Shown here: positions 3 to 58,165 of the stretch, piece by piece
How positions within the stretch are numbered: the stretch's first letter is position 1
How the letters are laid out: every line of letters begins with the position of its first letter
DNA from: a virus
Taxonomy: Duplodnaviria; Caudoviricetes
IMG/VR virus record: IMGVR_UViG_3300028886_000028
Location: 160,001 to 224,000 of that record
DNA length: 64,000 bases
Strand: one strand, 5' to 3'
Program-made: the position numbers and the translations under genes
Notes under the pieces: model-generated
The model's input: the letters and a program-made list of their open reading frames with translations, nothing else
Told to the model about the DNA's origin: nothing
The model's database searches: none

Positions 3-929
3 TTCGATGTAACAGATACAAGTAGTCCAACAAAGTTATTAAATAACACAAATCATTTCAGTTCAATTGAGATAGATGACGTTGTTCAACCATCAGTTGT
101 CAGCGCATATACGTTCGATACACTTGGTGAACATACAGTTAAATATACATTGGTAGACCCAACAATTATAGGCAGTAAAGCTTTCAGTGGCTGTACTAGT
201 CTTACAAGTATAGATATACCTGATGGTGTTACAAGTATTGGTACTGAGGCTTTCAGAGGTTGTAGTAGCCTTAGTAGTTGTACAATAGGTGATGGTGTAA
301 TAAGTATTGGTAATAGTGCTTTCAATGGCTGTACTAGTCTTACAAGTATAGATATACCTGATAGTGTAACAACTATTGGTAATAATGTTTTCTATAATTG
401 TAGTGGCCTTACAAGTTGTACAATAGGTAGTGGTGTAACAAGTATCGGTAGTAATGCTTTCCAAGATTGTACTAGTCTTACAAATATAGTTATACCTGAT
501 AGTGTTACAAGTATTGGTAATAGCGCTTTCAATGGATGTAGAAGTCTTACAAGTTGTACAATAGGTAGTGGCGTGACAAATATTGGTGATAGTGCTTTCA
601 GAAATTGTAGAAGTCTTACAAGCTGTACAATAGGTGATGGCGTTACAAGTATTGGTAATAATGCTTTCCAAAATTGTACTAGCCTTGCAAGTTGTACAAT
701 AGGCAGTGGTGTTACAAGTATTGGTAATAATGCTTTCCAAGATTGTACTAGTCTTAGTAACATAACATGCAATGCAATGACAGCGCCTACAATAGATAAT
801 AATACATTCCAAAATGTTAAAACTAATGGAACATTATACGTTCCGCAAGGTAGTACTAGCTATGATGTATGGATGGGAACAGGAAACTATTACTTAGGAA
901 AGTATAGTTGGACAAAAGTTGAACAATAA
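3..929 (+). CDS. BspA-type leucine-rich repeat (LRR_5) protein, 5' truncated by window edge
   Basis: Frame is open from position 3 (FDVTDTSSPT..., matching 56960..58165). Contains tandem 23-aa xLTSIxIPDSVTSIGxxAFxxC repeats and a C-terminal cap (GTLYVP...WTKVEQ). Confidence 0.9.
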   Translation, partial: FDVTDTSSPTKLLNNTNHFSSIEIDDVVQPSVVSAYTFDTLGEHTVKYTLVDPTIIGSKAFSGCTSLTSIDIPDGVTSIGTEAFRGCSSLSSCTIGDGVISIGNSAFNGCTSLTSIDIPDSVTTIGNNVFYNCSGLTSCTIGSGVTSIGSNAFQDCTSLTNIVIPDSVTSIGNSAFNGCRSLTSCTIGSGVTNIGDSAFRNCRSLTSCTIGDGVTSIGNNAFQNCTSLASCTIGSGVTSIGNNAFQDCTSLSNITCNAMTAPTIDNNTFQNVKTNGTLYVPQGSTSYDVWMGTGNYYLGKYSWTKVEQ

Positions 930-945
930 CAGTAGTAAGTAATAT

Positions 946-977
946 AAGGAGTGATTACAGTAGTAGTTACTCCTTTT
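946..977 (+). terminator. Intrinsic terminator (AAGGAGT...ACTCCTTTT)
   Basis: Inverted repeat followed by a T-run just after the stop codon. A related copy is at 4718-4747. Confidence 0.6.
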
Positions 978-1019
978 ATTATACCACCTTATGATTGTGG
1001 TCATACCAATGGAAGTACA
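966..1019 (+). repeat. 54-bp 3' subterminal repeat, copy 1 (copy 2 at 4735-4788)
   Basis: GTTACTCCTTTTATTATRCCACCTTATGATTGTGGTCATACCAATGGAAGTACA is identical apart from one base after two unrelated payload genes. Confidence 0.9.
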
Positions 1020-1030
1020 TCTAATTATTT

Positions 1031-3431: not shown

Positions 3432-4703
3432 ATGGGAATTTATTTAAAAAAATTTAGCGCTCATACTGATTATGAAGCAGCTAAAAGTAGTTTAATACTA
3501 CCAAATGTATCAATATGCTCTGATGTGCTTGATGAGGTGCATTATAATCCATATGTAGGTATAAGTAGTGTTACACTTAACAAGAGTGAATTAAGTCTTA
3601 ATAAGGGTGAAACTGAGACGTTGGTAGCCACTGTATTGCCAGCTAATGCAAGTAACAAGGGTGTTACTTGGTCATCAAGTGATGATAGCGTTGCCACTGT
3701 GAGCAGTAACGGTCTTGTGACTGCTATTGGTGGTGGTAATACCAATATTACTGTAACAACTGTTGATGGTGGCTTTACAGCGCAATGTTCATTAAACATC
3801 ATTGTAAATGTAGCAGGTGTTACACTCAATAAGAGCACACTTAGTCTTAGCAAAGGTGCAACTGAAACATTAGTTGCAACAGTATCACCAAGCGATGCTG
3901 GTAATAAGAACGTTATTTGGTCATCGAGTAATGATAGTGTTGCTACTGTTAATAGCAATGGTCTTGTAACGGCTATTGGCGATAGTGGTAGTGCTATTAT
4001 TACAGTTACAACAGTTGATGGTGGTTTTACTGCACAGTGTGGCTGTAGTGTAATTGACACTAATGGGCATGATTATGTTGAGATTGGTGGACTTAAGTGG
4101 GCAACAAAGAATGTTGGTGCAAGCAAAATTACTGATAATGGTTTATATTTCCAATGGGGTGATACCCAAGGCTACACTGTTGACCAAGTAGGTAGTGGAA
4201 GCGGCAAGAAAGCCTTTGATTGGCCAGATTATAAGTACATAAGTGGAGTAGGAACATCAAGTTCGGCATTTACAAAATACAATTCAACTGATGGTTTAAC
4301 AACTCTTGAGGCTGTTGATGATGCTGCAAGTGTTAATATGGGTGGTTCATGGCGTATGCCAACATCTGAAGAATTACAAGCTCTTGGTGCTGCTAGTGAT
4401 TTTATCACGTCTGGCGGAACAAAAATAACAACCAGTGATAAGTTAACAACCTTAAATGGTGTCAAGGGTATCTTAGTTGCAGATAAAAACGACTATTCCA
4501 AGAGATTATTCTTTCCTACTGCGGGCTACTGCGCCAACACAACTGTGAACGATAGAGGAAGTAAAGGCTTCTGCCGGACGAGTTCGCTTTACAGTGGCGA
4601 CGTGAGTAAAGCCTACACCTTGCTCTTATTCAGCTACGGAGTGTACTGGGGTAGCGGCGGCCCTCGCAGCAACGGCTATCCGGTTCGTGGCGTGATTGCT
4701 TAA
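3432..4703 (+). CDS. Anchor-peptide + 2x Big_2 Ig-like + C-type lectin (Fib_succ_major/DUF1566-like) protein; probable DGR target
   Basis: Conserved N-terminal peptide; two VTWSSSDDSVATV..G.VTA Ig repeats; KWATKNVGA...YFQWG...WRMPT..E...G.PVR lectin motifs; GC-rich 3' end. Confidence 0.85.
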   Translation: MGIYLKKFSAHTDYEAAKSSLILPNVSICSDVLDEVHYNPYVGISSVTLNKSELSLNKGETETLVATVLPANASNKGVTWSSSDDSVATVSSNGLVTAIGGGNTNITVTTVDGGFTAQCSLNIIVNVAGVTLNKSTLSLSKGATETLVATVSPSDAGNKNVIWSSSNDSVATVNSNGLVTAIGDSGSAIITVTTVDGGFTAQCGCSVIDTNGHDYVEIGGLKWATKNVGASKITDNGLYFQWGDTQGYTVDQVGSGSGKKAFDWPDYKYISGVGTSSSAFTKYNSTDGLTTLEAVDDAASVNMGGSWRMPTSEELQALGAASDFITSGGTKITTSDKLTTLNGVKGILVADKNDYSKRLFFPTAGYCANTTVNDRGSKGFCRTSSLYSGDVSKAYTLLLFSYGVYWGSGGPRSNGYPVRGVIA

Positions 4704-5850: not shown

Positions 5851-7332
5851 ATGGGAAGTTATATAAAAATATTTAATACTCATGAAGAGTATCTTGAATG
5901 GGTAGAAACTTCATTGGTAGAGCCTAACATTTCATTTTGTAAAGATAAGCCTCGCCAAGTACATTATCATCCATTGTCTGGATGTACAGAAGGTGTTGTG
6001 TATAAAATTACAAGCACGCCATCTTACCCTTCTATAATTGAAAACGATGTGACATCATTTGATATTAGCTTTGATTATAGAAAGGCTGATATAGATGAAC
6101 ATTGCAGAGAAACAGATATTGTAAACAGCGCTGATACTGTAACAGTTAATTGTGGCGCAAATACAGGCTCAACAGATAGAGTTGTATCAGGAGTCGTAAC
6201 ATGGAATAGAAACGATATTGAATATAACGTTGTTCAAAAAGGAGTTTGTGTTGATTCCACTGTATATGAACTTGTAGGAAATCCATCTTATCCGGCAACT
6301 ATTCAATATGACGTAACATCATTTGATATTAATTTCAATTATAAGAAAACTGTAACAACAAGTGATTGTCAAAAAACTGTTACAAACAGTGCAGATACTG
6401 TAACTGTTAATTGCGGAGCGAATACAGGTTCATCAGATAGAACAGTGTCAGGTACTGTAACATGGAATGGCATAAACATTGAGTATAGTGTTACGCAGAA
6501 AAAAGGTTGTACTGTTTCAACTGTATATGAGCTTGTAGGAAATCCATCTTATCCAGCAACAATTGAATACGATACAACATCATTTGTTATTAACTTTAAT
6601 TACAAAAAAACTGATACAAATGAGTATTGCCAAGAAACTGTTACAAACAGTGCAGATACTGTAACTGTTAATTGTGGCGCGAATACAGGTTCGTCAGATA
6701 GAACAGTATCCGGTACCGTAACATGGAATGGAATTAATATTGAATATAACGTTACACAAAGTGGCTATTCTGACCCGTATGGAGGCTATGAGTATGTTGA
6801 CTTAGGTCTTCCTAGTGGATTAAAATGGGCTAAATATAATATTGGTGCTTCCAATGAAAGCGAAGTAGGAATGTATTTTTCATACGGAAATATAGTCGGG
6901 CATTATAATTGTGACGGGTATGATTTTTCATCCGCTAGTTACAGTACAACAAACGGTTATAGATTAAGCGGAAATATACCTCAAAATTCACAGTATGATG
7001 CGGCTATTGCTATTTGGGGTAATGGATGGAGAATGCCGACGCGAGACGAATTTCAAGAATTAATAAATAATACAACTTGTTCTTATGATTCAAATACATA
7101 TACATTCACTATAACAAGTAAAATAAATGGTAAATCAATTAAAATAAAAGCTTCAGGATATTGGGATAATACTTCTTGCCCTAGCCTTACGACAACATCA
7201 ATATATATCATGTCTTCCACATTATCAGGAAAATATGGAGTATCATTGAATGCCTCTTCTTATGGCGATTATAAAATGCACGTATATGGTAATAGATTTA
7301 CAGGCTTACCAATTCGTCCTGTACATAGTTAA
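5851..7332 (+). CDS. Anchor-peptide + 3 tandem ~87-aa beta modules + C-type lectin domain
   Basis: Divergent N-terminal peptide; three PSYP..I....TSF...DTVTVNCGANTG repeats; YVDLGLPSGLKWA...WRMPTRDE...PIRPV. Confidence 0.8.
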   Translation: MGSYIKIFNTHEEYLEWVETSLVEPNISFCKDKPRQVHYHPLSGCTEGVVYKITSTPSYPSIIENDVTSFDISFDYRKADIDEHCRETDIVNSADTVTVNCGANTGSTDRVVSGVVTWNRNDIEYNVVQKGVCVDSTVYELVGNPSYPATIQYDVTSFDINFNYKKTVTTSDCQKTVTNSADTVTVNCGANTGSSDRTVSGTVTWNGINIEYSVTQKKGCTVSTVYELVGNPSYPATIEYDTTSFVINFNYKKTDTNEYCQETVTNSADTVTVNCGANTGSSDRTVSGTVTWNGINIEYNVTQSGYSDPYGGYEYVDLGLPSGLKWAKYNIGASNESEVGMYFSYGNIVGHYNCDGYDFSSASYSTTNGYRLSGNIPQNSQYDAAIAIWGNGWRMPTRDEFQELINNTTCSYDSNTYTFTITSKINGKSIKIKASGYWDNTSCPSLTTTSIYIMSSTLSGKYGVSLNASSYGDYKMHVYGNRFTGLPIRPVHS

Positions 7333-14897: not shown

Positions 14898-14990
14898 ACA
14901 ATAAACTATAGAATGCAGTCAGAAATGGCTGCATTTTTTGTTGCCTTAGATATTTATATAAAAAAATTAGATTTTAAAAAAGTAATAGCT

Positions 14991-16028: not shown

Positions 16029-16114
16029 TAAGCAATAAAAAGAAATAAATGTTTAACCCCTTTTTAAAAGGGGTTTTTTTGTGTTTTAAAGATATTTATA
16101 TAAAAATATTGTAT

Positions 16115-17980: not shown

Positions 17981-17982
17981 TT

Positions 17983-18237: not shown

Positions 18238-18263
18238 TTATTTTATATAAAAACAAATCATAT

Positions 18264-19094: not shown

Positions 19095-19126
19095 TAAACC
19101 CTTATAAAAGTATTTGAAAATTAAAA

Positions 19127-19930: not shown

Positions 19931-19942
19931 AATATTAGTATT

Positions 19943-37704: not shown

Positions 37705-37768
37705 ATTAAATAATAGGGTAATATCCTAAAAAAATATTACCCTTTTTAATAAATTAAAATAAACAAAT

Positions 37769-38968: not shown

Positions 38969-38977
38969 TGATATAAT

Positions 38978-42346: not shown

Positions 42347-42372
42347 TTTTTTAGTAAAATAATATTAGCAAT

Positions 42373-44391: not shown

Positions 44392-44416
44392 TATAAATCT
44401 TCTAATTTTTTAAAAA

Positions 44417-44677
44417 ATGGGAACTTGGTCAATACAGCCTAGCCATAGCGTGATAAATAAAAATAATGGCACTTTTATTTTTCCAAAAAATGTTAGCGAA
44501 GATAATGTAAATTATCGTATACAATATGAAAATAACGGAATAACATCAAATTATATAGCATATACTTTAAAAAAATGTGATTGCCCCGATTATACAATAA
44601 AATCTGTTATTGATGGACAAGTGATTTCTAAAATTCCTTATGAAGGAACAACAGTTAAGTTTGTGGCTGAAAAATAA
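44417..44677 (+). CDS. Small putative virion protein
   Basis: C-terminus resembles that of 1927..2745 (C..YTI...EG.TV.F.A). Confidence 0.55.
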   Translation: MGTWSIQPSHSVINKNNGTFIFPKNVSEDNVNYRIQYENNGITSNYIAYTLKKCDCPDYTIKSVIDGQVISKIPYEGTTVKFVAEK

Positions 44678-44783
44678 AAGCGTTTTTTTTACGTAAAATC
44701 ATAATTATGATAGGTTTCTAAATATTTATAAGTAATTGAAGCATTAAAAATTCATAATAATATAAATAATATAGATATAAGAT

Positions 44784-46154: not shown

Positions 46155-46186
46155 AGAAAATAAATTATTAATATTTAAAAACTAAT

Positions 46187-47479
46187 ATGGCAAATTTTAG
46201 GTATTCACATTTATTTACCACTAAGATTGGTAATGAAGCGATTCAAGCAGCTGCTGCAAAGTTAAACGCTGCTGAAATAGCACTTGCTATTGCTGATGGA
46301 GAAGAGAAGATTCTTTTCAAGAATGAGAGTGGTGATGTAGTTTCTGTTGCTACTGAGGAACAAATTTCAACATTACTTTCAAGTGTAACTCAATCAATTA
46401 CTAATGAGGTAGCAAGAGCAATATCTGCTGAGACCGAACTTGGAAACTTGATTGAAGCTGTTGATGACAAGGTAGACCAGGAGATTGCTGATAGAGCTGC
46501 TGATGTTGATGCAGAAGAGGCTCGTGCAATATCTGCTGAAACAGAATTGCAAACTGCAATTGAGGATGAAGTAACTCGTGCGACAGGTGCAGAGGAAGCA
46601 CTTAGCGACAGAATAAGCGCAATTGAGAGTGGTTCTACTCAAGCACTTGAAGATGAAATTGCTAGAGCAGAAGCTGCTGAAGAAGCACTTGATGCAAAGA
46701 TTGATGCTGAAAAGCAAAGAGCATTGAGCGCAGAGACAGACATTCTTGATGTGATTGAAGATGAGATTACAAATCGTAAAGCAAATGCTGTAGCTAGCGT
46801 TGATTATGATGAGAGTGGAAAGACTATCGACTTCTACAATGCTAACAATGTAAAGATTGACTCTATTGACGCAACTGCATTCATCAAGGATGGTATGATT
46901 GACAGTGTTACACTTGAGACAACTGGTGACACAACTTATCTTGTAATCGTTTGGAATACAGACGCCGGTAAGGAAACCACTAATATTGACCTTGGTGACT
47001 TGTTCGATGCTGACAATTACTACACAAAGGCTGAAACTGATGACCTTCTTGCAAATAAAACCGATTATGTAGTTAATGGCACTAACGGTAGAGCACTTAT
47101 GTTCAATGAAACTGATGGCGGTGGCGCTAAATTTGAACATAACGATGGTACTTGGTCTTTCGCCGGCGTAAATGATGGCGGTAAGAATGGCCTTGCTGGA
47201 CAGATTTATGCAATTGACCATAATAATGGTAATAAAGGCGTTAAACTTGATGTTACTGTAGGCGGCTTATACTACACTAAAGGTGATGAGAGCGGAAAAG
47301 CAGTTGCAGAAAGAGACGTTGAAGCTAATGAAGTTGCAACTAAAGGTAATGTTGCAGGCACAAAAGTTGCAGCAGTAAATGTTGGCTCAGATGCAGGTAT
47401 CACACTTACACTTGGAGACGGTACTGAAATCGTTGCAACTGAAGCAGAAGAAATTACACTTTCAGCTGGAGAATTTTAA
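46187..47479 (+). CDS. Coiled-coil tail-fibre-like protein
   Basis: E..RA..AE repeats, IDATAFIKDGMIDSV module, C-terminal ITLSAGEF. Confidence 0.7.
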   Translation: MANFRYSHLFTTKIGNEAIQAAAAKLNAAEIALAIADGEEKILFKNESGDVVSVATEEQISTLLSSVTQSITNEVARAISAETELGNLIEAVDDKVDQEIADRAADVDAEEARAISAETELQTAIEDEVTRATGAEEALSDRISAIESGSTQALEDEIARAEAAEEALDAKIDAEKQRALSAETDILDVIEDEITNRKANAVASVDYDESGKTIDFYNANNVKIDSIDATAFIKDGMIDSVTLETTGDTTYLVIVWNTDAGKETTNIDLGDLFDADNYYTKAETDDLLANKTDYVVNGTNGRALMFNETDGGGAKFEHNDGTWSFAGVNDGGKNGLAGQIYAIDHNNGNKGVKLDVTVGGLYYTKGDESGKAVAERDVEANEVATKGNVAGTKVAAVNVGSDAGITLTLGDGTEIVATEAEEITLSAGEF

Positions 47480-47574
47480 TTTAATATAAAAAAATAAAAT
47501 TTCATAAAGGTGGTGGATGAAAAATTACCACCACCTTTTTTTTAAAAATAATAATAGAATTTATATTCAAAATT

Positions 47575-50500
47575 ATGGCAAAATTTAGGTATCAACACAT
47601 TAAAAGTAGTGTAGAAGGCAAAGCACCAAGTTCAGAGAAAATAAAGGTTGGTGAAATAGCAGTAAATGACTTTGCCGGTGATGAGAAACTTTTTATTAAA
47701 AATAGCGAAGGGACTGTAGTAGATTTTCCACGCGGGTATTCAAGGGATGATATTGATGGAATTGAGAGAATTTTATCAGAATCATTAAATGACTTAAATA
47801 GCAGAAAACTAGATGCTAGCGCATATACTCCAACAGACCTTTCAAATTATTACACAAAGGATGAAACAAGTGGAGCAAGTGAGATTAACAGCGCCTTAAA
47901 CGAAATTGATGGCTCGTTTGACGAAATCAGTGATTTAATTGAAGCTCTTGACGAAAAGAAATTAGATGCTAGTGCTTATACGGAAACAGATTTAACTGAT
48001 TATTACAAAAAAGAAGAAACCAGTGGCGCAAGCGAAATACAAAGTGCATTAGATGGAATTGATGACTTAATTGAAGCACTTGACGAAAAGAAACTTGATG
48101 CTAGCGCATATACTCCGGTTGATTTATCTCTTTATTATACAAAAGATGAGATTGATGATTCAGGTACAGTAATCGCAGAGTCGTTAAATGACCTTAATAG
48201 TAGGAAACTTGACGCTAGCGCATATACTCCAACAGATTTAAGTAATTATTATACAAAGTCAGAGACTAGTGGAGCAAGTGAAATATCTACGGCTTTGTCA
48301 GACTATTACACAAAATCGGAAGTATATGCCAAATCTGAAGTTGATGATATTGTAGAAAGTATTGATGTAACAGACCAATTAAGCGGCTTCGCTGATTCTG
48401 TTATATATAACAGTACGACTAAATACGTAGAATTTTATCACGGAACAACAGCTGGTACAAAGGTATTTGAATTTGATGCAACTGATTTTATTAAAGACGG
48501 AATGATTGATTCCGTTAGTGTTGAAACAAGTGGTGATACATCTGTTCTTGTTATAACATGGAATACTGATGCAGGTAAGGAAGAAACCATTCTTAATATT
48601 GGTGACATTTTTGAAGCAGATAATTATTATACTAAGTCAGAAACAAGTGGTACAACTGAAATTCAAAATGCATTAGATGAAAAGGCTGATAAGGATGATT
48701 TAACACCAATTTATGAGGCTATTGAAGATTTAAGTGGGCAGAATGAAACCATTGCGGCTGCATTGGTAGATTTGGATAGCCAAAGCGAAACTGTTGCAGC
48801 AGCACTTGTTGATTTGGACAGCCAGCACGAAACAATAGCAGCAGCGCTTGTTGATTTAAATGATAGGAAACTTGACGCTACAGCTTATACTCCAGTTAAT
48901 TTATCTAACTACTATACAAAGTCAGAAACAAGTGGAGCAAGTGAAATTTCTACAGCTTTGTCAGGATATTACACAAAATCAGAAGTGTATACCAAATCTG
49001 AAGTTGATAATATTGTAGATAGTATTGACGTGTCTGGCCAATTAAGTGGTTATCTTACCACAAGCGCATTTACATCTTATAGCGCAAACGTAGATAACGA
49101 ATTAGATAGCATATTAGACGATATTAATGACACTATAGAAGCACTCGACGAAAAGAAATTAGATGCTAGCGCATATACTCCAACAGACCTTTCAAATTAT
49201 TACACTAAAGACGAAATTGATGATTCAGGTACAGTAATTGCAGAGTCGTTAAATGACCTTAATAGTAGGAAACTTGATGCAAGTGCGTATACTCCAACTG
49301 ATTTAAGTAATTACTACACAAAATCAGAAACAAGTGGAGCAAGTGAAATAGCTACAGCATTATCAGGTTATTACACAAAGTCAGAAACAAGTGGTGCAAC
49401 TGAAATTGCTAATGCATTATCAGGTTATTACACAAAGTCAGAAACAAGTGGAGCAAGTGAAATAGCTACAGCATTATCAGGTTATTACACAAAGTCAGAA
49501 ACAAGCGGCGCTACTGAAATTCAAAATGCACTAGATGAAATTAGTAATTCATTAAGTGGTGTTGATGATTCAATTGAAGAACTTGATGAGAAAAAACTTG
49601 ATGCAAGTGCGTACACCCCAATTGATTTAAGTAAGTATTATGAAAAAGAGTATATTGATGAAATTGAAGAAATTACTTCAGAATCATTAAATGATTTGAA
49701 TAGTAGGAAACTTGACGCTAGCGCATACACCCCAATAGATTTATCTGACTATTACACAAAATCTGAAGTGGATAATATAGCAGAAAGTATTGATGTATCT
49801 GACCAACTAAGCGGTTATGCTGATTCTGTCATATACAATAGTACAAGTAAATATGTCGAATTCTATCATGGAACAACAGCAGGAACAAAAGTATTTGAAT
49901 TCGATGCTGAACCATTTATCATTGATGGAATGGTAGAAGATGTTGCAATTGAAGATGTAGTGAGTGGAGCAAGCACTGTTAAATGCCTTGTAGTAAGTTT
50001 CAACACGGAAGCAGGAAAACAAGATATAACCATTCCTGTTGCTGATATATTTGATTCAAGTTCATATTACACAAAGGGAGAGATTGATGATGTTGAAAGA
50101 GTTATTTCAGAATCATTAAATGACCTAAATCTTAGAAAACTCGATGTTAGTGCATATACTCCAACTGATTTGTCTAATTATTATAACAAGACAGAAATTG
50201 ATGGAATTATAGAAAATATTGATGTATCTGACCAGTTAAGCGGTTATGTTATGACAAGCACATTCACTTCTTATAGCGCAAGCGTAGATAGTGAATTAGA
50301 TGCAATTGGTGATTTAATTGAGGCTCTTGATGAAAATAAGTTGGATGCTAGCGCATATACTCCAACTGATTTAAGTAATTACTACACAAAATCAGAAACA
50401 AGTGGTGCTACTGAAATTGAAAATGCATTAAACGATATTGTTAGTAGTTTAACAATTACTGTTGATACTGCAATAGATGAAAATTCTAGTAACCCAATTG

Positions 50501-51603
50501 CAAATAGCGCAATTACTACTGTTATATTCAATAATGAAAGAATAGTGGCAGAATCATTAAATGACCTTAATGAAAGAAAACTTGATGCTAGTGCATATAG
50601 TGAAACTGATTTGTCTAATTATTATACAAAAGATGAAACCAGTGGTGCAACTGAAATTTCAACCGCTTTGTCAGGATATTACACGAAAGGTGAAACAAGC
50701 GGAGCAAGTGAAATATCTTCTGCTTTATTAGAGTATTATACAAAGTCAGAAACAAGTGGCGCTACTGAATTGGAAGCAGCATTAAGTGGAAAAGTTGATA
50801 CAAATGATATTGCTGATTTCTTCGATAATGCCGTTTATGAGTTAAGTGGAACAACACATGTTATTAATTTCTATAATGGTAACACAATTAAAGCCACCAT
50901 TGATGCAACTGATTTCATCAAAGACGGAATGATTGATTCCGTTAGAGTTGAAACAAGTGGCGATACATCTGTTCTTGTTATAACATGGAATACTGATGCT
51001 GGCAAATCACAAACTATCCTTAACGTTGGCGACATCTTTGAGTCTGATAACTATTATACAAAGGATGAAACAAGTGGCGCAACTGAAATAACAGAAGCAT
51101 TAAGTGAAATTGACGATTTAATTGAGGCTCTTGATGAAAATAAGTTGGATGCTAGCGCATATACTCCAACTGATTTAAGCAATTACTATACAAAGTCAGA
51201 AACAAGTGGCGCTACTGAAATTGAAGACGCACTAAACGATATTGTTAGTAGTTTAACAATTACTGTTGATACTGCAATAGATGAAAATTCTAATAACCCA
51301 ATTGCAAATAGTGCAATTACTGCTGTTATATTAGATAATGAAAGAATAGTGGCAAAATCATTAAATGACCTTAATAGTAGGAAACTTGATGTTAGTGCAT
51401 ATTCAGAAACTGATTTATCTGATTATTATACAAAATCAGAAACAAGTGGTGCTACTGAAATTTCAACCGCAATATCAGACATGGCAACAAAGAGTGCAGA
51501 CCTTGATAATATAATGCTAAAGAAAATAACTCAAAGTGATTATGATGACCTTGTTTCAGGCGGAACAGTTAATCTTAACACGCTTTATATTATAATTGAT
51601 TAA
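47575..51603 (+). CDS. Highly repetitive long fibre protein
   Basis: GEIAVN N-terminus; repeated KLDASAYTPTDLSNYYTKSETSGA units; DATDFIKDGMIDSV modules; C-terminal ITQSDYDDL...LYII. Confidence 0.75.
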   Translation: MAKFRYQHIKSSVEGKAPSSEKIKVGEIAVNDFAGDEKLFIKNSEGTVVDFPRGYSRDDIDGIERILSESLNDLNSRKLDASAYTPTDLSNYYTKDETSGASEINSALNEIDGSFDEISDLIEALDEKKLDASAYTETDLTDYYKKEETSGASEIQSALDGIDDLIEALDEKKLDASAYTPVDLSLYYTKDEIDDSGTVIAESLNDLNSRKLDASAYTPTDLSNYYTKSETSGASEISTALSDYYTKSEVYAKSEVDDIVESIDVTDQLSGFADSVIYNSTTKYVEFYHGTTAGTKVFEFDATDFIKDGMIDSVSVETSGDTSVLVITWNTDAGKEETILNIGDIFEADNYYTKSETSGTTEIQNALDEKADKDDLTPIYEAIEDLSGQNETIAAALVDLDSQSETVAAALVDLDSQHETIAAALVDLNDRKLDATAYTPVNLSNYYTKSETSGASEISTALSGYYTKSEVYTKSEVDNIVDSIDVSGQLSGYLTTSAFTSYSANVDNELDSILDDINDTIEALDEKKLDASAYTPTDLSNYYTKDEIDDSGTVIAESLNDLNSRKLDASAYTPTDLSNYYTKSETSGASEIATALSGYYTKSETSGATEIANALSGYYTKSETSGASEIATALSGYYTKSETSGATEIQNALDEISNSLSGVDDSIEELDEKKLDASAYTPIDLSKYYEKEYIDEIEEITSESLNDLNSRKLDASAYTPIDLSDYYTKSEVDNIAESIDVSDQLSGYADSVIYNSTSKYVEFYHGTTAGTKVFEFDAEPFIIDGMVEDVAIEDVVSGASTVKCLVVSFNTEAGKQDITIPVADIFDSSSYYTKGEIDDVERVISESLNDLNLRKLDVSAYTPTDLSNYYNKTEIDGIIENIDVSDQLSGYVMTSTFTSYSASVDSELDAIGDLIEALDENKLDASAYTPTDLSNYYTKSETSGATEIENALNDIVSSLTITVDTAIDENSSNPIANSAITTVIFNNERIVAESLNDLNERKLDASAYSETDLSNYYTKDETSGATEISTALSGYYTKGETSGASEISSALLEYYTKSETSGATELEAALSGKVDTNDIADFFDNAVYELSGTTHVINFYNGNTIKATIDATDFIKDGMIDSVRVETSGDTSVLVITWNTDAGKSQTILNVGDIFESDNYYTKDETSGATEITEALSEIDDLIEALDENKLDASAYTPTDLSNYYTKSETSGATEIEDALNDIVSSLTITVDTAIDENSNNPIANSAITAVILDNERIVAKSLNDLNSRKLDVSAYSETDLSDYYTKSETSGATEISTAISDMATKSADLDNIMLKKITQSDYDDLVSGGTVNLNTLYIIID

Positions 51604-51737: not shown

Positions 51738-51968
51738 TAGCATAATGATATATGAGCGATAATGTTATTAATTGGGAACAAGTAAGGATAGATGCATCCA
51801 TTAATATAATGAATGCAATATTATCTAATAGTATCATGGTATTTATTCTTCAATTTTTATTTAAAAAACAAATATCAGACATCGCTGTAAAATATGCTGA
51901 TAAATTGATTGAAGAATTAAAGAAATAACATTAATCAAATATTTATATATAAAAAACAATTAATTATT

Positions 51969-53438
51969 ATGGGAAGATTTATAAGTAATTTTCAAACAAC
52001 ATCTGAATTGATAGCCTTTTCTGGCACAACAATGTTTGGCAAACCTCATGTATCATTGACAAAAGATACGTCATCAGTACATTATTTCAAAAGTGGCGTT
52101 GTTCCGCCAACTCCGCAGTATAGGTTTGTTGATGATGAAGGGTACACTTGTGAAGGATATGATAAATACACAAAGAAAAAACAGCAAGTATCATATGATA
52201 ACGGTGCAACATGGACTGATACCGGAGTTGTTTCAGCCGGTACATTAATTGAAGCAAATTCAGAAGATTGTGGATATGTTCCGCCAACGCCTACTGAAAC
52301 AAGAGTTGTATGTAAGTATAATACTAGTTCTGAAGGAGAAATTTCATTATTCTATTATTTTGAAAGCGGAAGTGGCAGCGGAAGTGGTAGTGGTTCAGGC
52401 AGTGAGCCTCCATTCACATCTATGGAAGTAGATGGCGTTGAAGTAGAGGTGACTCCTACTTACACATTTGACACAACAGGCGAGCACATTGTTAAATTTA
52501 CGCTAGCAGACCCAACAAATATTGGTACGAGTGCTTTCACTCATTGTTATAAACTTACAAGTGTAACTATGCCAGATAGTGTGACAAATATTGGTGATTA
52601 TGCTTTCTTTTGGTGTGATGGCCTTACAAGTATAGACATTCCAAGCGGCGTTACAAGTATTGGTGATTATGCTTTCTATCAATGTTATGGCCTTACAAGT
52701 TGTACAATAGGTAGCGGTGTTACAAGTATTGGTGAGAATGCTTTCTATTATTGTACTGGTCTTACAAGTATAGTTATTCCTGATAACGTAACAACTATAA
52801 GTGAGAATGCTTTCTATGAATGTCATAGTCTTACAAGTTGTACAATAGGTAGTGGCGTTACAAGTATTGGTGGTGAAGCTTTCAGAGATTGTAGTGGCCT
52901 TACAAGTATAGTTATACCTGATAGTGTTATAAGTATAGGCAATAGTGCTTTCGGATGGTGTAGTAGCATTAGTAGTTGTACAATAGGTAGTGGCGTTACA
53001 AGTATTGGTTATGACGCTTTCATTGCTTGTAGCGGCCTTACAAGTATAAACATACCTGATAGTGTGACAATTATTGATAGTAACACTTTCAACGGTTGTA
53101 GAAGTGTTACAAGTTGTACAATAGGTAGTGGCGTTACAAATATTGGTACTTATGCTTTCGCTGATTGTAGAAGCCTTACAAGTATAACATCAAATGCTGT
53201 AACTGCACCTGAAATACAAATTAACACATTCCAAGGAATTGCAGAAAATGGTACATTATATGTTCCAGAAGATAGTACTAGTTATGATACCAATTGGTTG
53301 TCAAGTGAAGAATACTATTTAGGATATTACAGTTGGAATATAGAACATACACAGCCAAGTGGCTCAGGTAGCGGCTCAGGCAGTGGCTCAGATAGTGGTA
53401 CAGACAGTGGCTCAGGCAGTGGTTCTGGAAATGGTTAA
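51969..53438 (+). CDS. Variant anchor-peptide + GS linker + BspA LRR protein
   Basis: MGRFISNFQT...PHVSL...VHYF; GSGSGS linkers; about 10 LRRs. Confidence 0.88.
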   Translation: MGRFISNFQTTSELIAFSGTTMFGKPHVSLTKDTSSVHYFKSGVVPPTPQYRFVDDEGYTCEGYDKYTKKKQQVSYDNGATWTDTGVVSAGTLIEANSEDCGYVPPTPTETRVVCKYNTSSEGEISLFYYFESGSGSGSGSGSGSEPPFTSMEVDGVEVEVTPTYTFDTTGEHIVKFTLADPTNIGTSAFTHCYKLTSVTMPDSVTNIGDYAFFWCDGLTSIDIPSGVTSIGDYAFYQCYGLTSCTIGSGVTSIGENAFYYCTGLTSIVIPDNVTTISENAFYECHSLTSCTIGSGVTSIGGEAFRDCSGLTSIVIPDSVISIGNSAFGWCSSISSCTIGSGVTSIGYDAFIACSGLTSINIPDSVTIIDSNTFNGCRSVTSCTIGSGVTNIGTYAFADCRSLTSITSNAVTAPEIQINTFQGIAENGTLYVPEDSTSYDTNWLSSEEYYLGYYSWNIEHTQPSGSGSGSGSGSDSGTDSGSGSGSGNG

Positions 53439-53515
53439 GAATAATAAATCTATAAAAAGGGGTAATCAGTTAAGATTACTCTTTTTTTATTTGTTAATAC
53501 TTTTATTTTTTGTAT

Positions 53516-55066
53516 ATGAATAATAAATTTTGCATATTAACAGTTATAAAAAATGAACATGAATACCTAGATGAGTGGATAAAATATCACCTTGATTTAG
53601 GTATTAATCATATATTCATATTTGAGGATATTGACAGTGATTCGCATAAGGAAATATGTGAAAAATATGGCGATAAAATAACATTAAATAATATTGATGT
53701 GGTTCTAGATGAACAAAATAAGAAAAAAATAAGGGAACTGAAATTATCTAAAATAAAGAATCCTCAAGAAATATATTTTCCAAAGGCTTTAACGTGGATA
53801 CAGAAAAACTATAATTATAATTGGTGTTTTGTCATAGATTGTGATGAATTTATAACACTAAAAGATAAAACACTTGAAGATATATTAGAATTATATAAAG
53901 ATTATGATGCTTTTGTTTTGCAATGGAAAATATATGGAGCAAACGGTCATATAAACAAACAAGATTATTCTGATAAAGGATTAGTGGGAATATATACAAA
54001 AGAATCTCATTATCCTGGACACCATGTATTAGAATGGACAACTAAGACTTGTTATAATGTTAAAGCGTTCAAAGAATCATATTTGAAATGTTGCCATCAG
54101 CCTACAGATGAATGTAAGTGGTGTAAAACAGACTATTCAAATGATAGAAAAAAATTAGTATTTGATAACGTTTATCTAAGGCATTATATGACAAAATCTT
54201 GGGAAGAATACATTTCCAAAAGAAAGAGGGGATATTTTATGGGATTCGCAAGAACAAGTGATTTTTTCTTTAAAGTAAATCCAGATATGCTTTCTATGAG
54301 GGGTGAATTATTAAATCAAATTAAAAGTGAAACTTTAGTTGTATTACCATATAAACAAAGTAGTTCTCAAGGTAATGAGATTAGATTAAGTTTAAATGGA
54401 TGGAGAAAGTTCTGTAAATTCGAATATCATTTCATTGTTATTGGAGAATTTGATGAAAAATTAAAAAAAGACTTTCCTTGGGTTGAATTCATACATTGTC
54501 CAAGTAAAGAAAAGAAAAATGGACAGTATAATCCACATCTTGATATTCAGAATAAGTTTAAGATAATATCAAGAATGTATTCTCAAATGTATGATGGCTT
54601 TATTTACATAACTGATGACGAATATGCAGTAAAACCATTTGATTTGAGTGATATTAAAGCCACGTATTATCATTCATCAAGTTTTACTGGGTGTGAAAAA
54701 TGCCCAACATCATTCTGGAGGTATGATAAATGGAAAACAAGGCAATTATTGGATAAATACAATTTGCCGCATATAAATTACACAACGCATTATCCTTGTT
54801 ACTTTGAATTTAAAAAATTTGATGAAATACGTAAAAAGTTCAATATGCTTGAAGAAAGCTATGTGTTTGATGATGTGTATTTCAACTATTTCAAGCATGA
54901 AGAACCAATATTGGACAGTGAAATAAGACTAGGTATATGGAGCAATGACATATTCAAGAATGATTTCAAGAAAGCAGTTGAAAATCCAAATATTAAATTT
55001 ATGTGCAATAGTGTTGAAGGATGGAGCAAGGAATTAGAAAAAGATTTGGAAATTATAGTAAATTAA
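53516..55066 (+). CDS. Two-domain glycosyltransferase (GT-A, family 2/92-like)
   Basis: KNEHEYLDEWIKYHLDLG, FVIDCDEF, HYMTKSWEE; second domain with YITDD. Confidence 0.8.
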   Translation: MNNKFCILTVIKNEHEYLDEWIKYHLDLGINHIFIFEDIDSDSHKEICEKYGDKITLNNIDVVLDEQNKKKIRELKLSKIKNPQEIYFPKALTWIQKNYNYNWCFVIDCDEFITLKDKTLEDILELYKDYDAFVLQWKIYGANGHINKQDYSDKGLVGIYTKESHYPGHHVLEWTTKTCYNVKAFKESYLKCCHQPTDECKWCKTDYSNDRKKLVFDNVYLRHYMTKSWEEYISKRKRGYFMGFARTSDFFFKVNPDMLSMRGELLNQIKSETLVVLPYKQSSSQGNEIRLSLNGWRKFCKFEYHFIVIGEFDEKLKKDFPWVEFIHCPSKEKKNGQYNPHLDIQNKFKIISRMYSQMYDGFIYITDDEYAVKPFDLSDIKATYYHSSSFTGCEKCPTSFWRYDKWKTRQLLDKYNLPHINYTTHYPCYFEFKKFDEIRKKFNMLEESYVFDDVYFNYFKHEEPILDSEIRLGIWSNDIFKNDFKKAVENPNIKFMCNSVEGWSKELEKDLEIIVN

Positions 55067-55119
55067 AGATATTTATATAATAGAAAAATAACAAAAAAAT
55101 TAAAAATTGTTTAATAATA

Positions 55120-56931
55120 ATGGGAAGATTTATAAGTAATTTCCAGACTACAGCAGAATTAATGGCTTTTTCTGGAACAACAGAATTTGGCAAGCCTCAT
55201 GTATCATTGACAAAAGATACATCGTTTGTATATTATTTTGCAAGTGGTGTTGTTCCACCAACTCCACAGTATAGGTTTGTGGATGACGGATACACTTGTA
55301 ATGGATTTGATAAATACACACAAATAAAGCAACAAGTGTCATATGATAATGGTGCAACATGGACTGATACGGGAATTGTTTCAGCTGGTACATTAATTGA
55401 AGCAAATTCAGAAGATTGTGGATATGTTCCGCCAACGCCTACTGAAACAAGAGTTGTATGTAAGTATAATACTAGTTCTTATGGACAAACTACTAAATTA
55501 TTCCATTTCGAAGGTGGAAGTGGTAGCGGTAGCGGAAGCGGTAGTGGTTCAGGTAGTGGAACCGGCGGTGATTTACCATTCAGTTCAATGGAAGTAGATG
55601 GCGTTGAAGTAGAGGTGGATTCTAATTACACATTCGACACAGCTGGTGAACACATAGTTAAATTTACATTAGTTGACCCAACAAATATTGGTACGAGTGC
55701 TTTCACTTATTGTTATAATCTTACAAGTGTAATTATACCAGATAGTGTGGCAAATATTGGTGATTATGCTTTCTATAGTTGCGACAGTATTACAAGTATA
55801 GTTATACCTGATAGTGTAACAAGTATTAGTAGTTATGCTTTCGCTGATTGTGGAAGCCTTAATAGCATATCCATACCTAATAGTGTAACAAGTATTGGTG
55901 AAAGTGCTTTCGCTGATTGCCATTGCCTTACAAGTGTAACAATTCCAAGTGGCGTTACAAGTATTGGTGATGTGGTTTTCAGCAATTGTAGAAGTCTTAC
56001 AAGTATAACTATACCAGATAGTGTTACAAGTATTGGCGATTATGCTTTCTATGATTGTAGAGGCCTTACAAGTATAGTTATACCTGATAGTGTAACAACG
56101 ATTGGTTATGAGGCTTTCTATGAATGTAATAGCCTTTCAAGTTGTACCATTGGAAGTGGTGTTACAAGTATTGGCAATGGTGCTTTCATGTTTTGTAGTG
56201 GACTTACAAGCATAGTTATACCTGATAGTGTTACAAGTATTGGCGATTATGTTTTCGAAGAATGTACAAGGCTTACAAGTTGTACCATAGGTAGCGGTGT
56301 AACAAGTATTGGTGAAAGCGCTTTTAAAATATGTACTAGTTTTACAAGTATAGATATACCTGATAGTGTTACAAGTATTGGTTATAATGCTTTCTATTAT
56401 TGTAGTGGCCTTACAAGTTGCACAATAGGTGATAGTGTTACAAGTATTGGTGATTATGCTTTCTATAAATGTAGTTGCCTTACAAGTATAGTTATACCTG
56501 ATAGTGTTACAAGTATTGGGGGACGTGCTTTCGCTGATTGTCACGGCCTTAGTAGTTGTACAATAGGTAGTGGGGTCACAAGTATTGGGGACGAAGGTTT
56601 CGGTAGGTGTACTAGCCTTACAAATATAGTTATACCTGATAGTGTAACAAGTATTGGTAATAGTGTTTTCAATTGTTGTAGTGGCCTTACAAGTTGTACA
56701 ATAGGTAGTGGCGTAACAAATATTGGCATTTACGTTTTTAGTGGCTGTTATAGTCTTAGTAGCATAGCATGCAATGCAATGACAGCACCTGCAATACAAA
56801 GTACCACATTCAATAACGTTAAAACTAATGGAACATTATACGTTCCGGCAAATAGTGTTGGCTATGATGTATGGATGCAGAGCGCCAATTATTATTTAGG
56901 ATTATATAATTGGGCAAAAGTTGAACAATAA
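55120..56931 (+). CDS. Variant anchor-peptide + GS linker + BspA LRR protein (paralogue of 51969)
   Basis: Near-identical N-terminal ~120 aa; about 15 LRRs; WAKVEQ cap. Confidence 0.9.
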   Translation: MGRFISNFQTTAELMAFSGTTEFGKPHVSLTKDTSFVYYFASGVVPPTPQYRFVDDGYTCNGFDKYTQIKQQVSYDNGATWTDTGIVSAGTLIEANSEDCGYVPPTPTETRVVCKYNTSSYGQTTKLFHFEGGSGSGSGSGSGSGSGTGGDLPFSSMEVDGVEVEVDSNYTFDTAGEHIVKFTLVDPTNIGTSAFTYCYNLTSVIIPDSVANIGDYAFYSCDSITSIVIPDSVTSISSYAFADCGSLNSISIPNSVTSIGESAFADCHCLTSVTIPSGVTSIGDVVFSNCRSLTSITIPDSVTSIGDYAFYDCRGLTSIVIPDSVTTIGYEAFYECNSLSSCTIGSGVTSIGNGAFMFCSGLTSIVIPDSVTSIGDYVFEECTRLTSCTIGSGVTSIGESAFKICTSFTSIDIPDSVTSIGYNAFYYCSGLTSCTIGDSVTSIGDYAFYKCSCLTSIVIPDSVTSIGGRAFADCHGLSSCTIGSGVTSIGDEGFGRCTSLTNIVIPDSVTSIGNSVFNCCSGLTSCTIGSGVTNIGIYVFSGCYSLSSIACNAMTAPAIQSTTFNNVKTNGTLYVPANSVGYDVWMQSANYYLGLYNWAKVEQ

Positions 56932-56959
56932 ATAAGCAATAAGAATTAAGAAAAAAATT

Positions 56960-58165
56960 ATGGCAAAATATTTAAGATTATTTGATGAACATACTGATTA
57001 TGAAGCAGCTGAGAGTAGCTTAGTATTACCGAACGTATCATTTTGTCTTGATACGCCTAATGATGTACATTATAAACCATATACTCCTCCAGCGTTAGTT
57101 GTTAAGTTTGATGTAACAGATACAAGTAGCCCAACAACAATTGCGAACAAAACAAGCGGATTTAATTCAATTGAGATAGATGGCGTTGTTCAACCATCAG
57201 TTGTTACTGAATATACATTTCCCACCACAGGCGAGCATACAGTTAAATATACATTAACAGACGAAACTATTATTGGAAATAGTGCTTTTACTGAATGCTA
57301 TAAAATTACAAGTATAGTTATACCTGATAGCGTAAAAACTATTGGCTACTATGCTTTTAGTAGTTGTAGCAGACTTACAAGTTGTACAATAGGAAGTGGA
57401 GTTACAAATATTGGTACTTGTGCTTTCAATCAATGTAGAAATCTTACAAGTATAGATATTCCTGATAGTATTACAAGTATTGGTACTTATGCTTTCCAAT
57501 ATTGTAGAAGTCTTACAAGTGTAAATATAGGTAGTGGAGTTATAAATATTGGCAATTTTGCTTTCGCTAATTGTAGCGGCCTTACAAGTATAGTTATCCC
57601 TGATAATGTAACAAGTATTGGAAGTGGCATGTGTAGCGGTTGTACAAACCTAACAAGTTGTACTATAGGTAGTGGTGTTACAAGTATTGGCAAAAGTGCT
57701 TTCAGAAATTGTAGTGGCATTACAAGTATAGTTATCCCTGATAGTGTTACAAGTATTGGAAATAACACTTTTACTTCTTGCTATAGCCTTACAAGTTGTA
57801 CAATAGGTAGTGGCGTTACAAGTATTAATAGCCAAACATTTGCTTATTGCAGTGGCCTTACAAGTATAAATATACCTGATAGCGTAACAAGAATTGAGAT
57901 ACAAGCTTTCGATGATTGTGATGCCCTTGCAAGCGTTACGATAGGTAGTGGCGTTACATATATTGGAGATGCATCTTTTGGGCGTTGTGATGGGCTACTT
58001 ACAATAATATCAAAAGCAACAGATGCGCCAACAATATTCAATAGCTTTTTATATGTTAGAAAAGGTGGCACATTATATGTTCCGGTAGGAAGTAGAGATA
58101 GTTACAATAATAAATGGGGTAGTGATTTACTAAGTAGTTACGAATGGACGTTAGAAGAACAATAA
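56960..58165 (+). CDS. Anchor-peptide + BspA LRR protein
   Basis: MAKYLRLFDEHTDYEAAESSLVLPNVSFCLDTPNDVHYKPY; about 11 LRRs. Confidence 0.9.
   Translation: MAKYLRLFDEHTDYEAAESSLVLPNVSFCLDTPNDVHYKPYTPPALVVKFDVTDTSSPTTIANKTSGFNSIEIDGVVQPSVVTEYTFPTTGEHTVKYTLTDETIIGNSAFTECYKITSIVIPDSVKTIGYYAFSSCSRLTSCTIGSGVTNIGTCAFNQCRNLTSIDIPDSITSIGTYAFQYCRSLTSVNIGSGVINIGNFAFANCSGLTSIVIPDNVTSIGSGMCSGCTNLTSCTIGSGVTSIGKSAFRNCSGITSIVIPDSVTSIGNNTFTSCYSLTSCTIGSGVTSINSQTFAYCSGLTSINIPDSVTRIEIQAFDDCDALASVTIGSGVTYIGDASFGRCDGLLTIISKATDAPTIFNSFLYVRKGGTLYVPVGSRDSYNNKWGSDLLSSYEWTLEEQ

What the first reader, a model, noticed from the sequence alone, without database searches (positions are those of the whole stretch)
3..58165. 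Modular adhesin repertoire: one conserved ~40-aa N-terminal anchor peptide fused to swappable Ig, LRR and lectin payloads
Seen: the peptide MxxYLKxFxxHTDYEAAxSxLILPNVSxCxDxxNEVHYNPY starts the genes at 3432, 5851 (divergent), 14991, 20636, 31627(-) and 56960. A variant (MGRFISNFQT...PHVSL...VHYF) starts 51969 and 55120. The truncated gene at 3..929 shares the next module with 56960. Payloads differ: Ig+Ig+lectin, module x3+lectin, module x1+LRR, lectin only, GS-linker+LRR. There is no signal peptide, and several copies sit behind the late-type motif. Inference: the peptide is a universal docking tag that displays many different binding domains on one repeated virion site (Hoc-like decoration), giving a mix-and-match surface. 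I do not recognise this as a described family.
Basis: partly seen in the sequence, partly recalled or inferred. Interest (0 to 1): 0.9.

Follow-up and report, generated by a model that had tools for sequence, protein, structure and literature searches.

The report
Shared N-terminal tag on jumbo-phage adhesins
A 401-kb phage from the cattle gut starts 15 otherwise different "sticky" proteins with the same 42-residue mini-domain, which belongs to a large unannotated family and most likely plugs interchangeable binding heads into the virus particle, a principle already known from smaller phages.

Summary
The peptide starts 8 complete genes in the window. It also starts the gene cut by the window's left edge. 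Genome-wide there are 15 copies, each directly after the start codon.

The peptide is under purifying selection among the paralogues (median dS 0.71, dN/dS about 0.25). In the deeper of two AlphaFold2 models it folds as a small strand-helix-strand-strand unit. It has no match in Pfam, PHROGs, NCBIfam or the PDB.

Outside this genome, 1,561 protein clusters (at 50% identity) carry the peptide, almost always at residue 1. They lie on fragments of related jumbo phages from animal-gut metagenomes. Isolated phages lack it, and bacterial genomes essentially do too.

The payloads are binding modules:
- BspA-type LRR (49 of 74 sampled proteins)
- C-type-lectin-like domains
- Big_2 Ig domains
- a beta-sandwich module
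- one tailspike-like beta-helix

Nine of the 15 genes sit behind the ATATTTATA motif that also precedes the tail-tube gene.

My best reading (about 55%) is a common virion-docking tag. The docking site is unknown, and nothing supports "Hoc-like on the capsid" in particular.

The principle is already known from the conserved docking peptides of branched receptor-binding proteins. This scan has also seen analogous but unrelated tags in other jumbo phages. I therefore call it a new variant of a known kind.

One side finding: relatives carry poly-G tracts inside the tag.

The parts
3..929 (+). C-terminal 308 aa of a 445-aa tagged protein (tag, beta-sandwich module, BspA-type LRR). Its tagged start lies 409 nt before the window, at genome position 159592.
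3432..4703 (+). Tagged protein, 423 aa. Tag at 3432-3557, then two Big_2 Ig domains and a C-type-lectin-like (Lcl_C/FISUMP-like) head. It starts 12 nt after an Amidase_3 gene (2769-3419).
5851..7332 (+). Tagged protein, 493 aa. Divergent tag, three copies of a ~90-aa Cys-containing beta-sandwich module (weak BACON hit), then a lectin-like head.
14991..16028 (+). Tagged protein, 345 aa. Tag, one beta-sandwich module, a disordered linker, then BspA-type LRR. The AlphaFold2 model shows beads on a string.
20636..21373 (+). Tagged protein, 245 aa. Tag (strand 4-7, helix 10-17, strands 25-28 and 34-37), a short linker, then a C-type-lectin-like head (pLDDT 91.6; best fold match is the Lcl C-terminal domain, Z 7.3).
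30968..31627 (-). Tagged protein, 219 aa: tag plus a lectin-like head of a second subtype. It is divergently placed 657 nt upstream of the 1806-aa tail-fibre gene. It shares 30-nt and 25-nt identical blocks at the tag/payload seam with the gene at 20636.
51969..53438 (+). Protein with the variant tag (MGRFISNFQTT...KPHVSL...VHYF), 489 aa. A small domain and a (GS)n linker are followed by BspA-type LRR.
55120..56931 (+). Protein with the variant tag, 603 aa. (GS)n linker, then a long BspA-type LRR.
56960..58165 (+). Tagged protein, 401 aa. Tag, a short Pro-rich linker, then BspA-type LRR.
14950..14958 (+). ATATTTATA motif (candidate late promoter element) upstream of the gene at 14991. The same motif lies at 31647-31655 (-), 51939-51947 (+) and 55069-55077 (+), ahead of three other tagged genes.
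   Evidence: 18 matches in the window against 6.4 expected
53510..55066 (+). Context: a family-2 glycosyltransferase gene between two tagged LRR genes. A second one (Glyco_tranf_2_5) lies at 58283-58978. A homologue of the first sits between two tagged genes in relative L020.
32284..51603 (+). Context: fibre cluster without the tag. It holds an 1806-aa repeat-rich fibre with a Peptidase_S74 chaperone end (32284-37704), LRR_5 proteins of 1122 and 672 aa, and a 1342-aa fibre. The fibres of 1806 aa (32284), 430 aa (46187) and 1342 aa (47575) share a different N-terminal motif.

Best explanation
The 42-residue N-terminal unit is a portable docking module. It is an autonomous strand-helix-strand-strand mini-domain, joined by a flexible linker to interchangeable binding heads (BspA-type LRR, C-type-lectin-like, Ig-like, one tailspike-like beta-helix). 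The tagged proteins are made late, without any export signal. The tag is inferred to fasten them to a common acceptor on the assembling virion. That would let one phage carry a repertoire of 15 adhesins, and heads could be exchanged by recombination at the tag/payload seam.

Shown:
- the tag's position, copy number and selection
- its independence from the payload
- its phage-only distribution
- the binding-type payloads
- a promoter motif shared with the tail-tube gene

Inferred:
- physical docking
- the acceptor site, which is unknown (the tail-fibre network is slightly favoured over the capsid)
- the stoichiometry
For: - 15 copies, each directly after the initiator Met, in front of different architectures.
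- Purifying selection on the tag among paralogues: median dS 0.71, dN 0.21, dN/dS about 0.25, with no pair at dS below 0.1. The conservation is therefore not recent gene conversion.
- 1,561 cluster representatives at E <= 1e-3 (207 at <= 1e-10) among 1.84 billion. The match begins at residue 1 in 252 of 264 fetched proteins. A word-index search found at least 2,826 clusters at 90% identity.
- Payloads are binding modules and never enzymes in the sample. LRR_5 is in 49 of 74 proteins, with Lcl_C, Big_2 and BACON also present. There are at least 25 further BLAST-unrelated groups.
- AlphaFold2 with 36 sequences models the tag as strand 4-7, helix 10-17, strand 25-28 and strand 34-37 at pLDDT 75-81. 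A separate lectin-like domain follows. Fold matches span residues 40-245 only.
- One tagged protein (genome 36114, 956 aa) carries a tailspike-type beta-helix. It matches PDB 4RU4, 4Y9V and 4RU5 at E about 1e-6 and a PHROG 'tail protein' at 7.5e-18.
- ATATTTATA lies upstream of 9 of 15 tagged genes (p = 2.6e-6) and of the tail-tube gene.
- There is no signal peptide. Isolated phages lack the tag. Only 2 MAG contigs among 185,579 species genomes carry it, in both cases at a contig end. One of them and a third bacterial-looking contig show a drop in GC there.
- Published precedent: conserved N-terminal peptides dock secondary receptor-binding proteins onto a branching domain, validated by engineering (PMC6872550, PMC13352976).
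Against: - No acceptor was identified. No T4 gp9/gp10-type domain was detectable by sequence.
- No proteomic, structural or binding data exist for any member.
- With a shallow alignment (10 sequences), the tag was modelled at low confidence (pLDDT 40-57).
- Most payloads (LRR, lectin, Ig) are not classical trimeric tailspikes. Fifteen proteins competing for one site raises an unresolved stoichiometry question.
- Several LRR_5 and FISUMP-type proteins of the same genome lack the tag, so the tag is not needed for every such protein.
Confidence: 0.55

Rival explanations
1. Hoc-like capsid decoration. The tag binds a highly repeated site on the gp23-type capsid lattice, so the head is coated with a mosaic of adhesins.
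For: - The phage has a T4-type major capsid protein.
- Two tagged genes (genome 33556 and 36114) lie 4-6.5 kb downstream of it.
- Some tagged proteins are small (219-245 aa) and carry Ig-like or beta-sandwich modules, as Hoc does.
- Fifteen paralogues fit a high-copy site better than six baseplate corners (inference).
Against: - There is no similarity to Hoc or to any capsid-binding domain.
- One payload is a tailspike-type beta-helix.
- Four of the eight complete window copies adjoin the tail-fibre cluster.
- Tagged genes sit at different places in relatives, so their position says little.
Confidence: 0.2
2. The proteins are not virion-bound. They are released at lysis as free lectins or adhesins, for example to coat debris, mucus, plant fibre or neighbouring cells. 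The tag would serve oligomerisation, folding or recognition by a phage chaperone or glycosyltransferase.
For: - Two glycosyltransferase genes interleave with tagged genes, and a homologue does so in a relative.
- The tag holds a nearly invariant N-V-S triplet.
- The payloads are generic binding domains.
Against: - The NVS triplet is lost in the variant tag (KPHVS) of two copies.
- A tailspike-like payload makes little sense off the particle.
- The promoter motif is shared with the tail-tube gene.
- Known analogues of such tags dock proteins to virions (PMC13352976).
Confidence: 0.12
3. A capsid-targeting or propeptide leader. The tag would load the proteins into the prohead and be cut off by the prohead protease, as with T4 internal proteins.
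For: - The tag is strictly N-terminal and the genes share a motif with late structural genes.
- The same genome uses a separate leader family of that kind (earlier scan notes; leader-bearing genes are seen behind the same motif).
Against: - The tag has no conserved (L/I)-x-E cleavage motif (alignments).
- It is a folded alpha/beta unit, not a single helix.
- The payloads are extracellular-type binding domains and a tailspike.
Confidence: 0.05
4. The conserved stretch matters mainly as DNA, as a homology seam for shuffling payload cassettes, and has no protein function of its own.
For: - Identical blocks of 30 and 25 nt lie at the tag/payload junction of two lectin genes.
- In another sample's assembly, a contig matches the backbone exactly between two tagged genes (16037-20625) and runs on beyond that match at both ends. 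Its flanks were not listed as matching the laid stretch, and the table is truncated.
Against: - Median dS of 0.71 with dN/dS of 0.25 shows that the amino-acid sequence is what is kept.
- The same residues (F8, Y14, P24, N25, S27) are invariant in 74 sampled family proteins drawn from the 1,561 clusters.
Confidence: 0.05

Closest known systems
Conserved N-terminal docking peptides of secondary receptor-binding proteins in branched RBP systems (K1-5/K1E/SP6; Klebsiella KP32, KP34, Menlow and PhiK64-1 groups; PMC6872550, PMC13352976)
   Same: A short conserved sequence sits at the extreme N-terminus of otherwise unrelated host-binding proteins of one phage group. The heads are exchangeable. The tag is specific to the phage group.
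   Different: - This tag is a 42-residue folded mini-domain rather than a 7-11-residue or unstructured peptide.
- It occurs up to 15 times per genome and in more than 1,500 clusters.
- The heads are mostly non-enzymatic adhesin domains (LRR, lectin, Ig) rather than depolymerase tailspikes.
- No T4gp10-like branching partner was found.
- There is no sequence similarity.
Hyperbranched tail fibres of T4-related jumbo phages RaK2/PhiK64-1 and PhiKp24 (PMC10253068; bioRxiv 10.1101/2022.03.15.484430)
   Same: Jumbo myoviruses with about ten or more different receptor-binding proteins. These are assembled into one apparatus through conserved N-terminal domains.
   Different: - In RaK2 each fibre protein has its own CBA120-like N-terminal domains and docks on specific gp10-like XD domains. 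Here one identical tag is shared by all.
- The tagged genes here are scattered over the genome as separate late units rather than sitting in one fibre operon.
Capsid decoration proteins T4 Hoc and T5 pb10 (own knowledge, not tested here)
   Same: A small capsid-binding part plus exposed Ig-like domains. These are non-essential accessory adhesins.
   Different: Hoc binds through its C-terminal domain and is a single gene. No sequence or fold link to this tag was found, and one payload here is tailspike-like.
Dockerin-cohesin system of cellulosomes (own knowledge; an analogy of logic only)
   Same: One small docking module on many different payloads plugs into a common scaffold.
   Different: A bacterial, extracellular, Ca-dependent module of about 70 residues. 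There is no homology, and no scaffold is known here.

Membership tests
Conserved docking peptide of secondary RBPs (branched RBP systems) | Conserved sequence at the extreme N-terminus of otherwise unrelated proteins of one phage or phage group | tested here: met
   15 of 15 copies start at residue 1-2. 252 of 264 family members start at residue 1.
Conserved docking peptide of secondary RBPs (branched RBP systems) | Payloads are receptor-binding proteins (tailspikes or fibres) | tested here: inconclusive
   One payload is homologous to solved tailspikes. The others are LRR, lectin or Ig adhesin-type domains whose role in host binding is not shown.
Conserved docking peptide of secondary RBPs (branched RBP systems) | A primary RBP with a T4gp10-like branching domain serves as acceptor | tested here: inconclusive
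   PF07880 (T4_gp9_10_N) found nothing in the genome at E <= 1. In published cases such domains are seen only by HHpred or structure (PMC6872550, PMC10253068), and those methods were not available for all candidates here.
Conserved docking peptide of secondary RBPs (branched RBP systems) | The peptide is required for incorporation into the virion | not testable with these tools
   Needs proteomics or engineering of an uncultured phage.
Hoc-like capsid decoration | Exposed Ig-like domains | tested here: met
   Big_2 x2 in the gene at 3432. The beta-sandwich module is modelled at pLDDT 80-86.
Hoc-like capsid decoration | A capsid-binding domain related to Hoc, or binding at capsomer centres | tested here: inconclusive
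   No Pfam, PHROG or PDB match for the tag. Binding cannot be tested here.
T4-type capsid targeting sequence (CTS) | N-terminal leader ending in a prohead-protease site (L/I)-x-E | tested here: not met
   No such conserved motif in the alignments of 15 and 51 tags. The tag is modelled as a folded alpha/beta unit.
Sec or lipoprotein signal peptide | Hydrophobic core of 7 or more residues after a basic N-terminus | tested here: not met
   The highest 9-residue hydropathy mean is 1.93 or less in all 15.
Any curated protein family covering the tag | Match of residues 1-42 to a Pfam, PHROG, NCBIfam or PDB sequence model | tested here: not met
   No match over residues 1-42. PF26707, a family not in the local copy, is recorded only on lectin-type members and never on LRR-type members, so it is unlikely to be the tag.

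The most novel reading that the evidence does not exclude
The tag is a universal plug for a high-copy acceptor on the particle. Each virion would then display a mosaic drawn from a 'wardrobe' of up to 15 adhesins. In some relatives, single adhesins would be switched on and off by hypermutable poly-G tracts placed inside the tag's loop. Together this would give a phase-variable, combinatorial virion surface in gut jumbo phages.
Probability: 0.2. Interest if true: 0.75.

Novelty: new variant of a known kind. Interest (0 to 1): 0.5.

Why it matters
The tag defines a large, unannotated domain family: more than 1,500 clusters at 50% identity and thousands of proteins. The family marks accessory adhesins of uncultured jumbo phages in ruminant and other animal guts.

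Recognising it would let virome annotators separate 'tag + head' proteins from bacterial BspA/FISUMP proteins. It would point to how these phages recognise hosts or stick to gut surfaces. If docking is shown, it would offer a natural plug-and-play handle for display on large phages.

It also adds one more case to a recurring pattern. Unrelated jumbo phages have each evolved their own N-terminal tag for an adhesin repertoire. This scan has met the pattern before, with different peptides, in E. coli, Pseudomonas-type and marine jumbo phages.

Tried and rejected
- Three copies of the tag+lectin protein gave no verdict in complex prediction (score 0.00, controls not run). This says nothing about oligomeric state.
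- tblastn of the tag against 50,697 GenBank phage records found no match.
- The ESM Atlas search returned no usable feature hit. Structural look-alikes of the 44-residue part had TM 0.5 or less and were unrelated.
- A PDB profile search with the tag returned only E > 1 noise.
- I looked for an acceptor and found nothing decisive:
  - The 1806-aa fibre of the window and the 1757-aa protein upstream of four tagged genes in L007 are unrelated.
  - A screen for internally repeated large proteins, followed by Pfam on the candidates, was inconclusive. The first attempts failed because BLAST drops off-diagonal self hits.
  - No T4_gp9_10_N domain was found.
- No reverse transcriptase gene was found, so the lectin heads are not DGR targets here.
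- The second AlphaFold2 model (10 sequences) did not resolve the tag.
- Laying a metatranscriptome run and three DNA runs cannot show expression of the tagged genes. All four runs are contig data, and the listed perfect RNA pieces lie in neighbouring genes.
- Three bacterial-looking contigs carry a tagged gene (L022, L024, L025). Two of them (L022, L024) show a sharp GC drop at the contig end where the gene lies. I read them as chimeric joins, not bacterial genes.
- An IMG/VR pattern scan for poly-G followed by PNVS found only the two copies already known, plus two unrelated high-GC hits.


Full report
WHAT IS THERE

The window is positions 160001-224000 of a single 401,138-bp virus record with 31% G+C. 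The record encodes a gp23-type major capsid protein, a tail tube protein and a long fibre with a Peptidase_S74 chaperone end. It is therefore a jumbo myovirus with a T4-type head.

Six carry the canonical form: 3432, 5851, 14991, 20636, 31627 on the minus strand, and 56960. Two carry a variant form: 51969 and 55120. The gene cut by the left edge of the window also begins with it, 409 nt before the window.

A profile of the peptide finds 15 copies in the genome. The other six start at genome positions 33556, 36114, 314002(-), 323737(-), 327431(-) and 394357(-). Each copy sits directly after the start codon, and nothing else in the six-frame translation scores above noise.

ANATOMY

All-against-all comparison shows a modular family. 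After the 42-residue tag comes one of the following:
- two Big_2 Ig domains plus a lectin-like head
- one to three copies of a ~90-residue Cys-containing module
- a (GS)n linker
- a head directly

The heads are of three kinds:
- BspA-type leucine-rich repeats (Pfam LRR_5, E down to 1e-141).
- A domain with weak Lcl_C/FISUMP matches. Its AlphaFold2 model (pLDDT 91.6) aligns with the Legionella Lcl C-terminal domain (Z 7.3), with DGR variable proteins, with FGE-type folds and with animal C-type lectins.
- A beta-helix in the 956-aa protein at genome 36114. It is homologous to solved tailspikes (4RU4, 4Y9V, 4RU5) and to a PHROG 'tail protein'.

In the better model, the tag is a small unit of its own: strand 4-7, helix 10-17, strands 25-28 and 34-37, at pLDDT 75-81. 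It is followed by a short linker, and structural matches cover only residues 40-245. A second model built from only ten sequences resolved the beta-sandwich module and the LRR but not the tag.

SELECTION AND EXPRESSION

Across ten paralogues, the tag region has median dS 0.71 and dN 0.21. No pair is nearly identical at synonymous sites. The amino-acid sequence is therefore what is maintained.

There is no hydrophobic core that could act as a signal peptide. There is also no conserved (L/I)-x-E site of the T4 prohead-protease type.

ATATTTATA occurs 18 times in the window against 6.4 expected. It lies 12-75 nt upstream of 42 of about 401 genes, including the tail-tube gene and genes with the separate leader family noted earlier in this genome. 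It lies upstream of 9 of the 15 tagged genes (p = 2.6e-6). The remaining window copies follow the preceding gene within 7-28 nt.

DISTRIBUTION

A profile search of 1.84 billion cluster representatives found 1,561 proteins at E <= 1e-3 and 207 at <= 1e-10. A word-index search found at least 2,826 clusters at 90% identity. In 252 of 264 fetched members the match starts at residue 1.

Of 74 sampled members of at least 190 residues, 49 carry LRR_5, 5 carry Lcl_C and 3 carry Big_2. None carries an enzyme domain. At least 25 further payload groups are unrelated by BLAST. No Pfam, PHROG, NCBIfam or PDB model covers the tag.

GenBank phages lack the tag. Only two MAG contigs among 185,579 species genomes hold it. 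One of these, and a further bacterial-looking contig found by exact protein look-up, show a GC drop at the contig end where the gene lies, which suggests chimeric joins.

The IMG/VR contigs that carry the tag are 16-44% complete fragments. Most share polymerase, sheath and other genes with this genome. The records counted hold one to five tagged genes each, and the tagged genes sit at differing places.

The window itself is found in bovine and other animal gut runs from several studies.

HOW IT MOST LIKELY WORKS

The tagged proteins are cytoplasmic and share a promoter motif with the tail-tube gene. They are built from extracellular-type binding domains and, in one case, a tailspike. Such proteins can act only on the particle or after lysis.

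A small, strictly N-terminal unit that is independent of its payload and strongly conserved is what a common attachment module would look like. Published work shows that conserved N-terminal peptides dock secondary receptor-binding proteins onto a branching domain of a primary one. Removing either partner abolishes incorporation (PMC6872550, PMC13352976). Jumbo phages RaK2, PhiK64-1 and PhiKp24 build fibres from nine or more such proteins (PMC10253068).

I therefore read the tag as a virion-docking module (about 55%). The acceptor is unknown. I favour the tail-fibre network slightly, for two reasons. One payload is tailspike-like. In the window, the gene at 31627(-) directly precedes the fibre cluster (32284-51603) and the genes at 51969, 55120 and 56960 directly follow it.

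The capsid version (Hoc-like) stays possible (about 20%) but has no specific support. The other rivals are less likely:
- free lectins with an oligomerisation or chaperone tag
- a cleaved leader
- a pure recombination seam

Recombination at the seam probably does happen in addition. Two lectin genes share identical blocks of 30 and 25 nt exactly at the tag/payload junction. In another sample's assembly, a 10-kb contig matches the window only between the stop of the gene at 14991 and the start of the gene at 20636, and runs on beyond that match at both ends (weak evidence).

COMPARISON AND NOVELTY

The logic matches the known docking peptides. It differs in several ways:
- the tag is a folded 42-residue domain
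- one identical tag serves up to 15 proteins
- the heads are mainly non-enzymatic adhesin domains
- the family is very large and unannotated

No gp10-like partner was detectable by sequence (inconclusive).

Earlier follow-ups in this scan reported analogous but unrelated tags in other jumbo phages. I did not check those. They show that the pattern recurs but do not support this case. I class the finding as a new variant of a known kind.

SIDE OBSERVATIONS

In three related contigs, a poly-G tract lies inside the tag, at the loop between the helix and the PNVS strand. The tract is G8 or G11 in frame, and G10 or G13 out of frame. In each of the three loci of 5-20 kb that were scanned, it is the only G or C run of six or more. 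This genome has no G or C run longer than six. The tracts look like contingency tracts of the kind recently described in phages (bioRxiv 10.1101/2025.10.21.683753; poly-G tracts in Campylobacter phages are mentioned in PMC10877375).

Two family-2 glycosyltransferase genes interleave with tagged LRR genes. Two of those LRR genes carry (GS)n linkers.

Noticed in passing
L013:10049-10059; L020:3955-3962; L016:8101-8113; L031 (G004:C1:11400-12000, minus strand): Relatives carry a poly-G tract inside the tag's coding sequence, always at the loop before PNVS. Two are in frame (G11, G8) and two out of frame (G13, G10). In each of the three 5-20-kb loci scanned, it is the only G/C run of 6 or more. 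This looks like a phase-variable on/off switch for single adhesin genes. This genome has none.
   Followed up: partly
window 53510-55066 and 58283-58978: Two family-2 glycosyltransferase genes sit among the tagged LRR genes. Two of those LRR genes have (GS)6-8 linkers. A homologue of the first glycosyltransferase lies between two tagged genes in relative L020. Virion-protein glycosylation is possible.
   Followed up: partly
window 20755-20784 and 31476-31505 (minus): A 30-nt identical block lies at the tag/payload junction of the two lectin-only genes. A 25-nt identical block lies over NEVHYNPY. Both suggest recombination at the seam.
   Followed up: yes
window 32284-37704, 46187-47479, 47575-51603; genome 47430-49154: A second shared N-terminus (MAK/N-FRY-H...GEIAVN...-F-KN) heads four fibre-like proteins of 1806, 430, 1342 and 575 aa. 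A third (MSKKY-NTLDFYGY) heads two proteins of 848 and 810 aa that flank the tagged genes at genome 33556 and 36114.
   Followed up: no
window 32284-37704: The 1806-aa fibre holds a long run of about 50-residue Cys-containing repeats (residues ~160-1260) before a Peptidase_S74 chaperone end.
   Followed up: partly
window 2769-3419: An Amidase_3 (N-acetylmuramoyl-L-alanine amidase) gene ends 12 nt before the tagged gene at 3432.
   Followed up: no
L022:9000-11003 and L024:7000-8852: Bacterial-looking contigs end in about 2 kb of low-GC phage-like DNA that carries a tagged gene. L022 also carries a gene with the other leader family of this phage. These are probably chimeric assemblies.
   Followed up: partly
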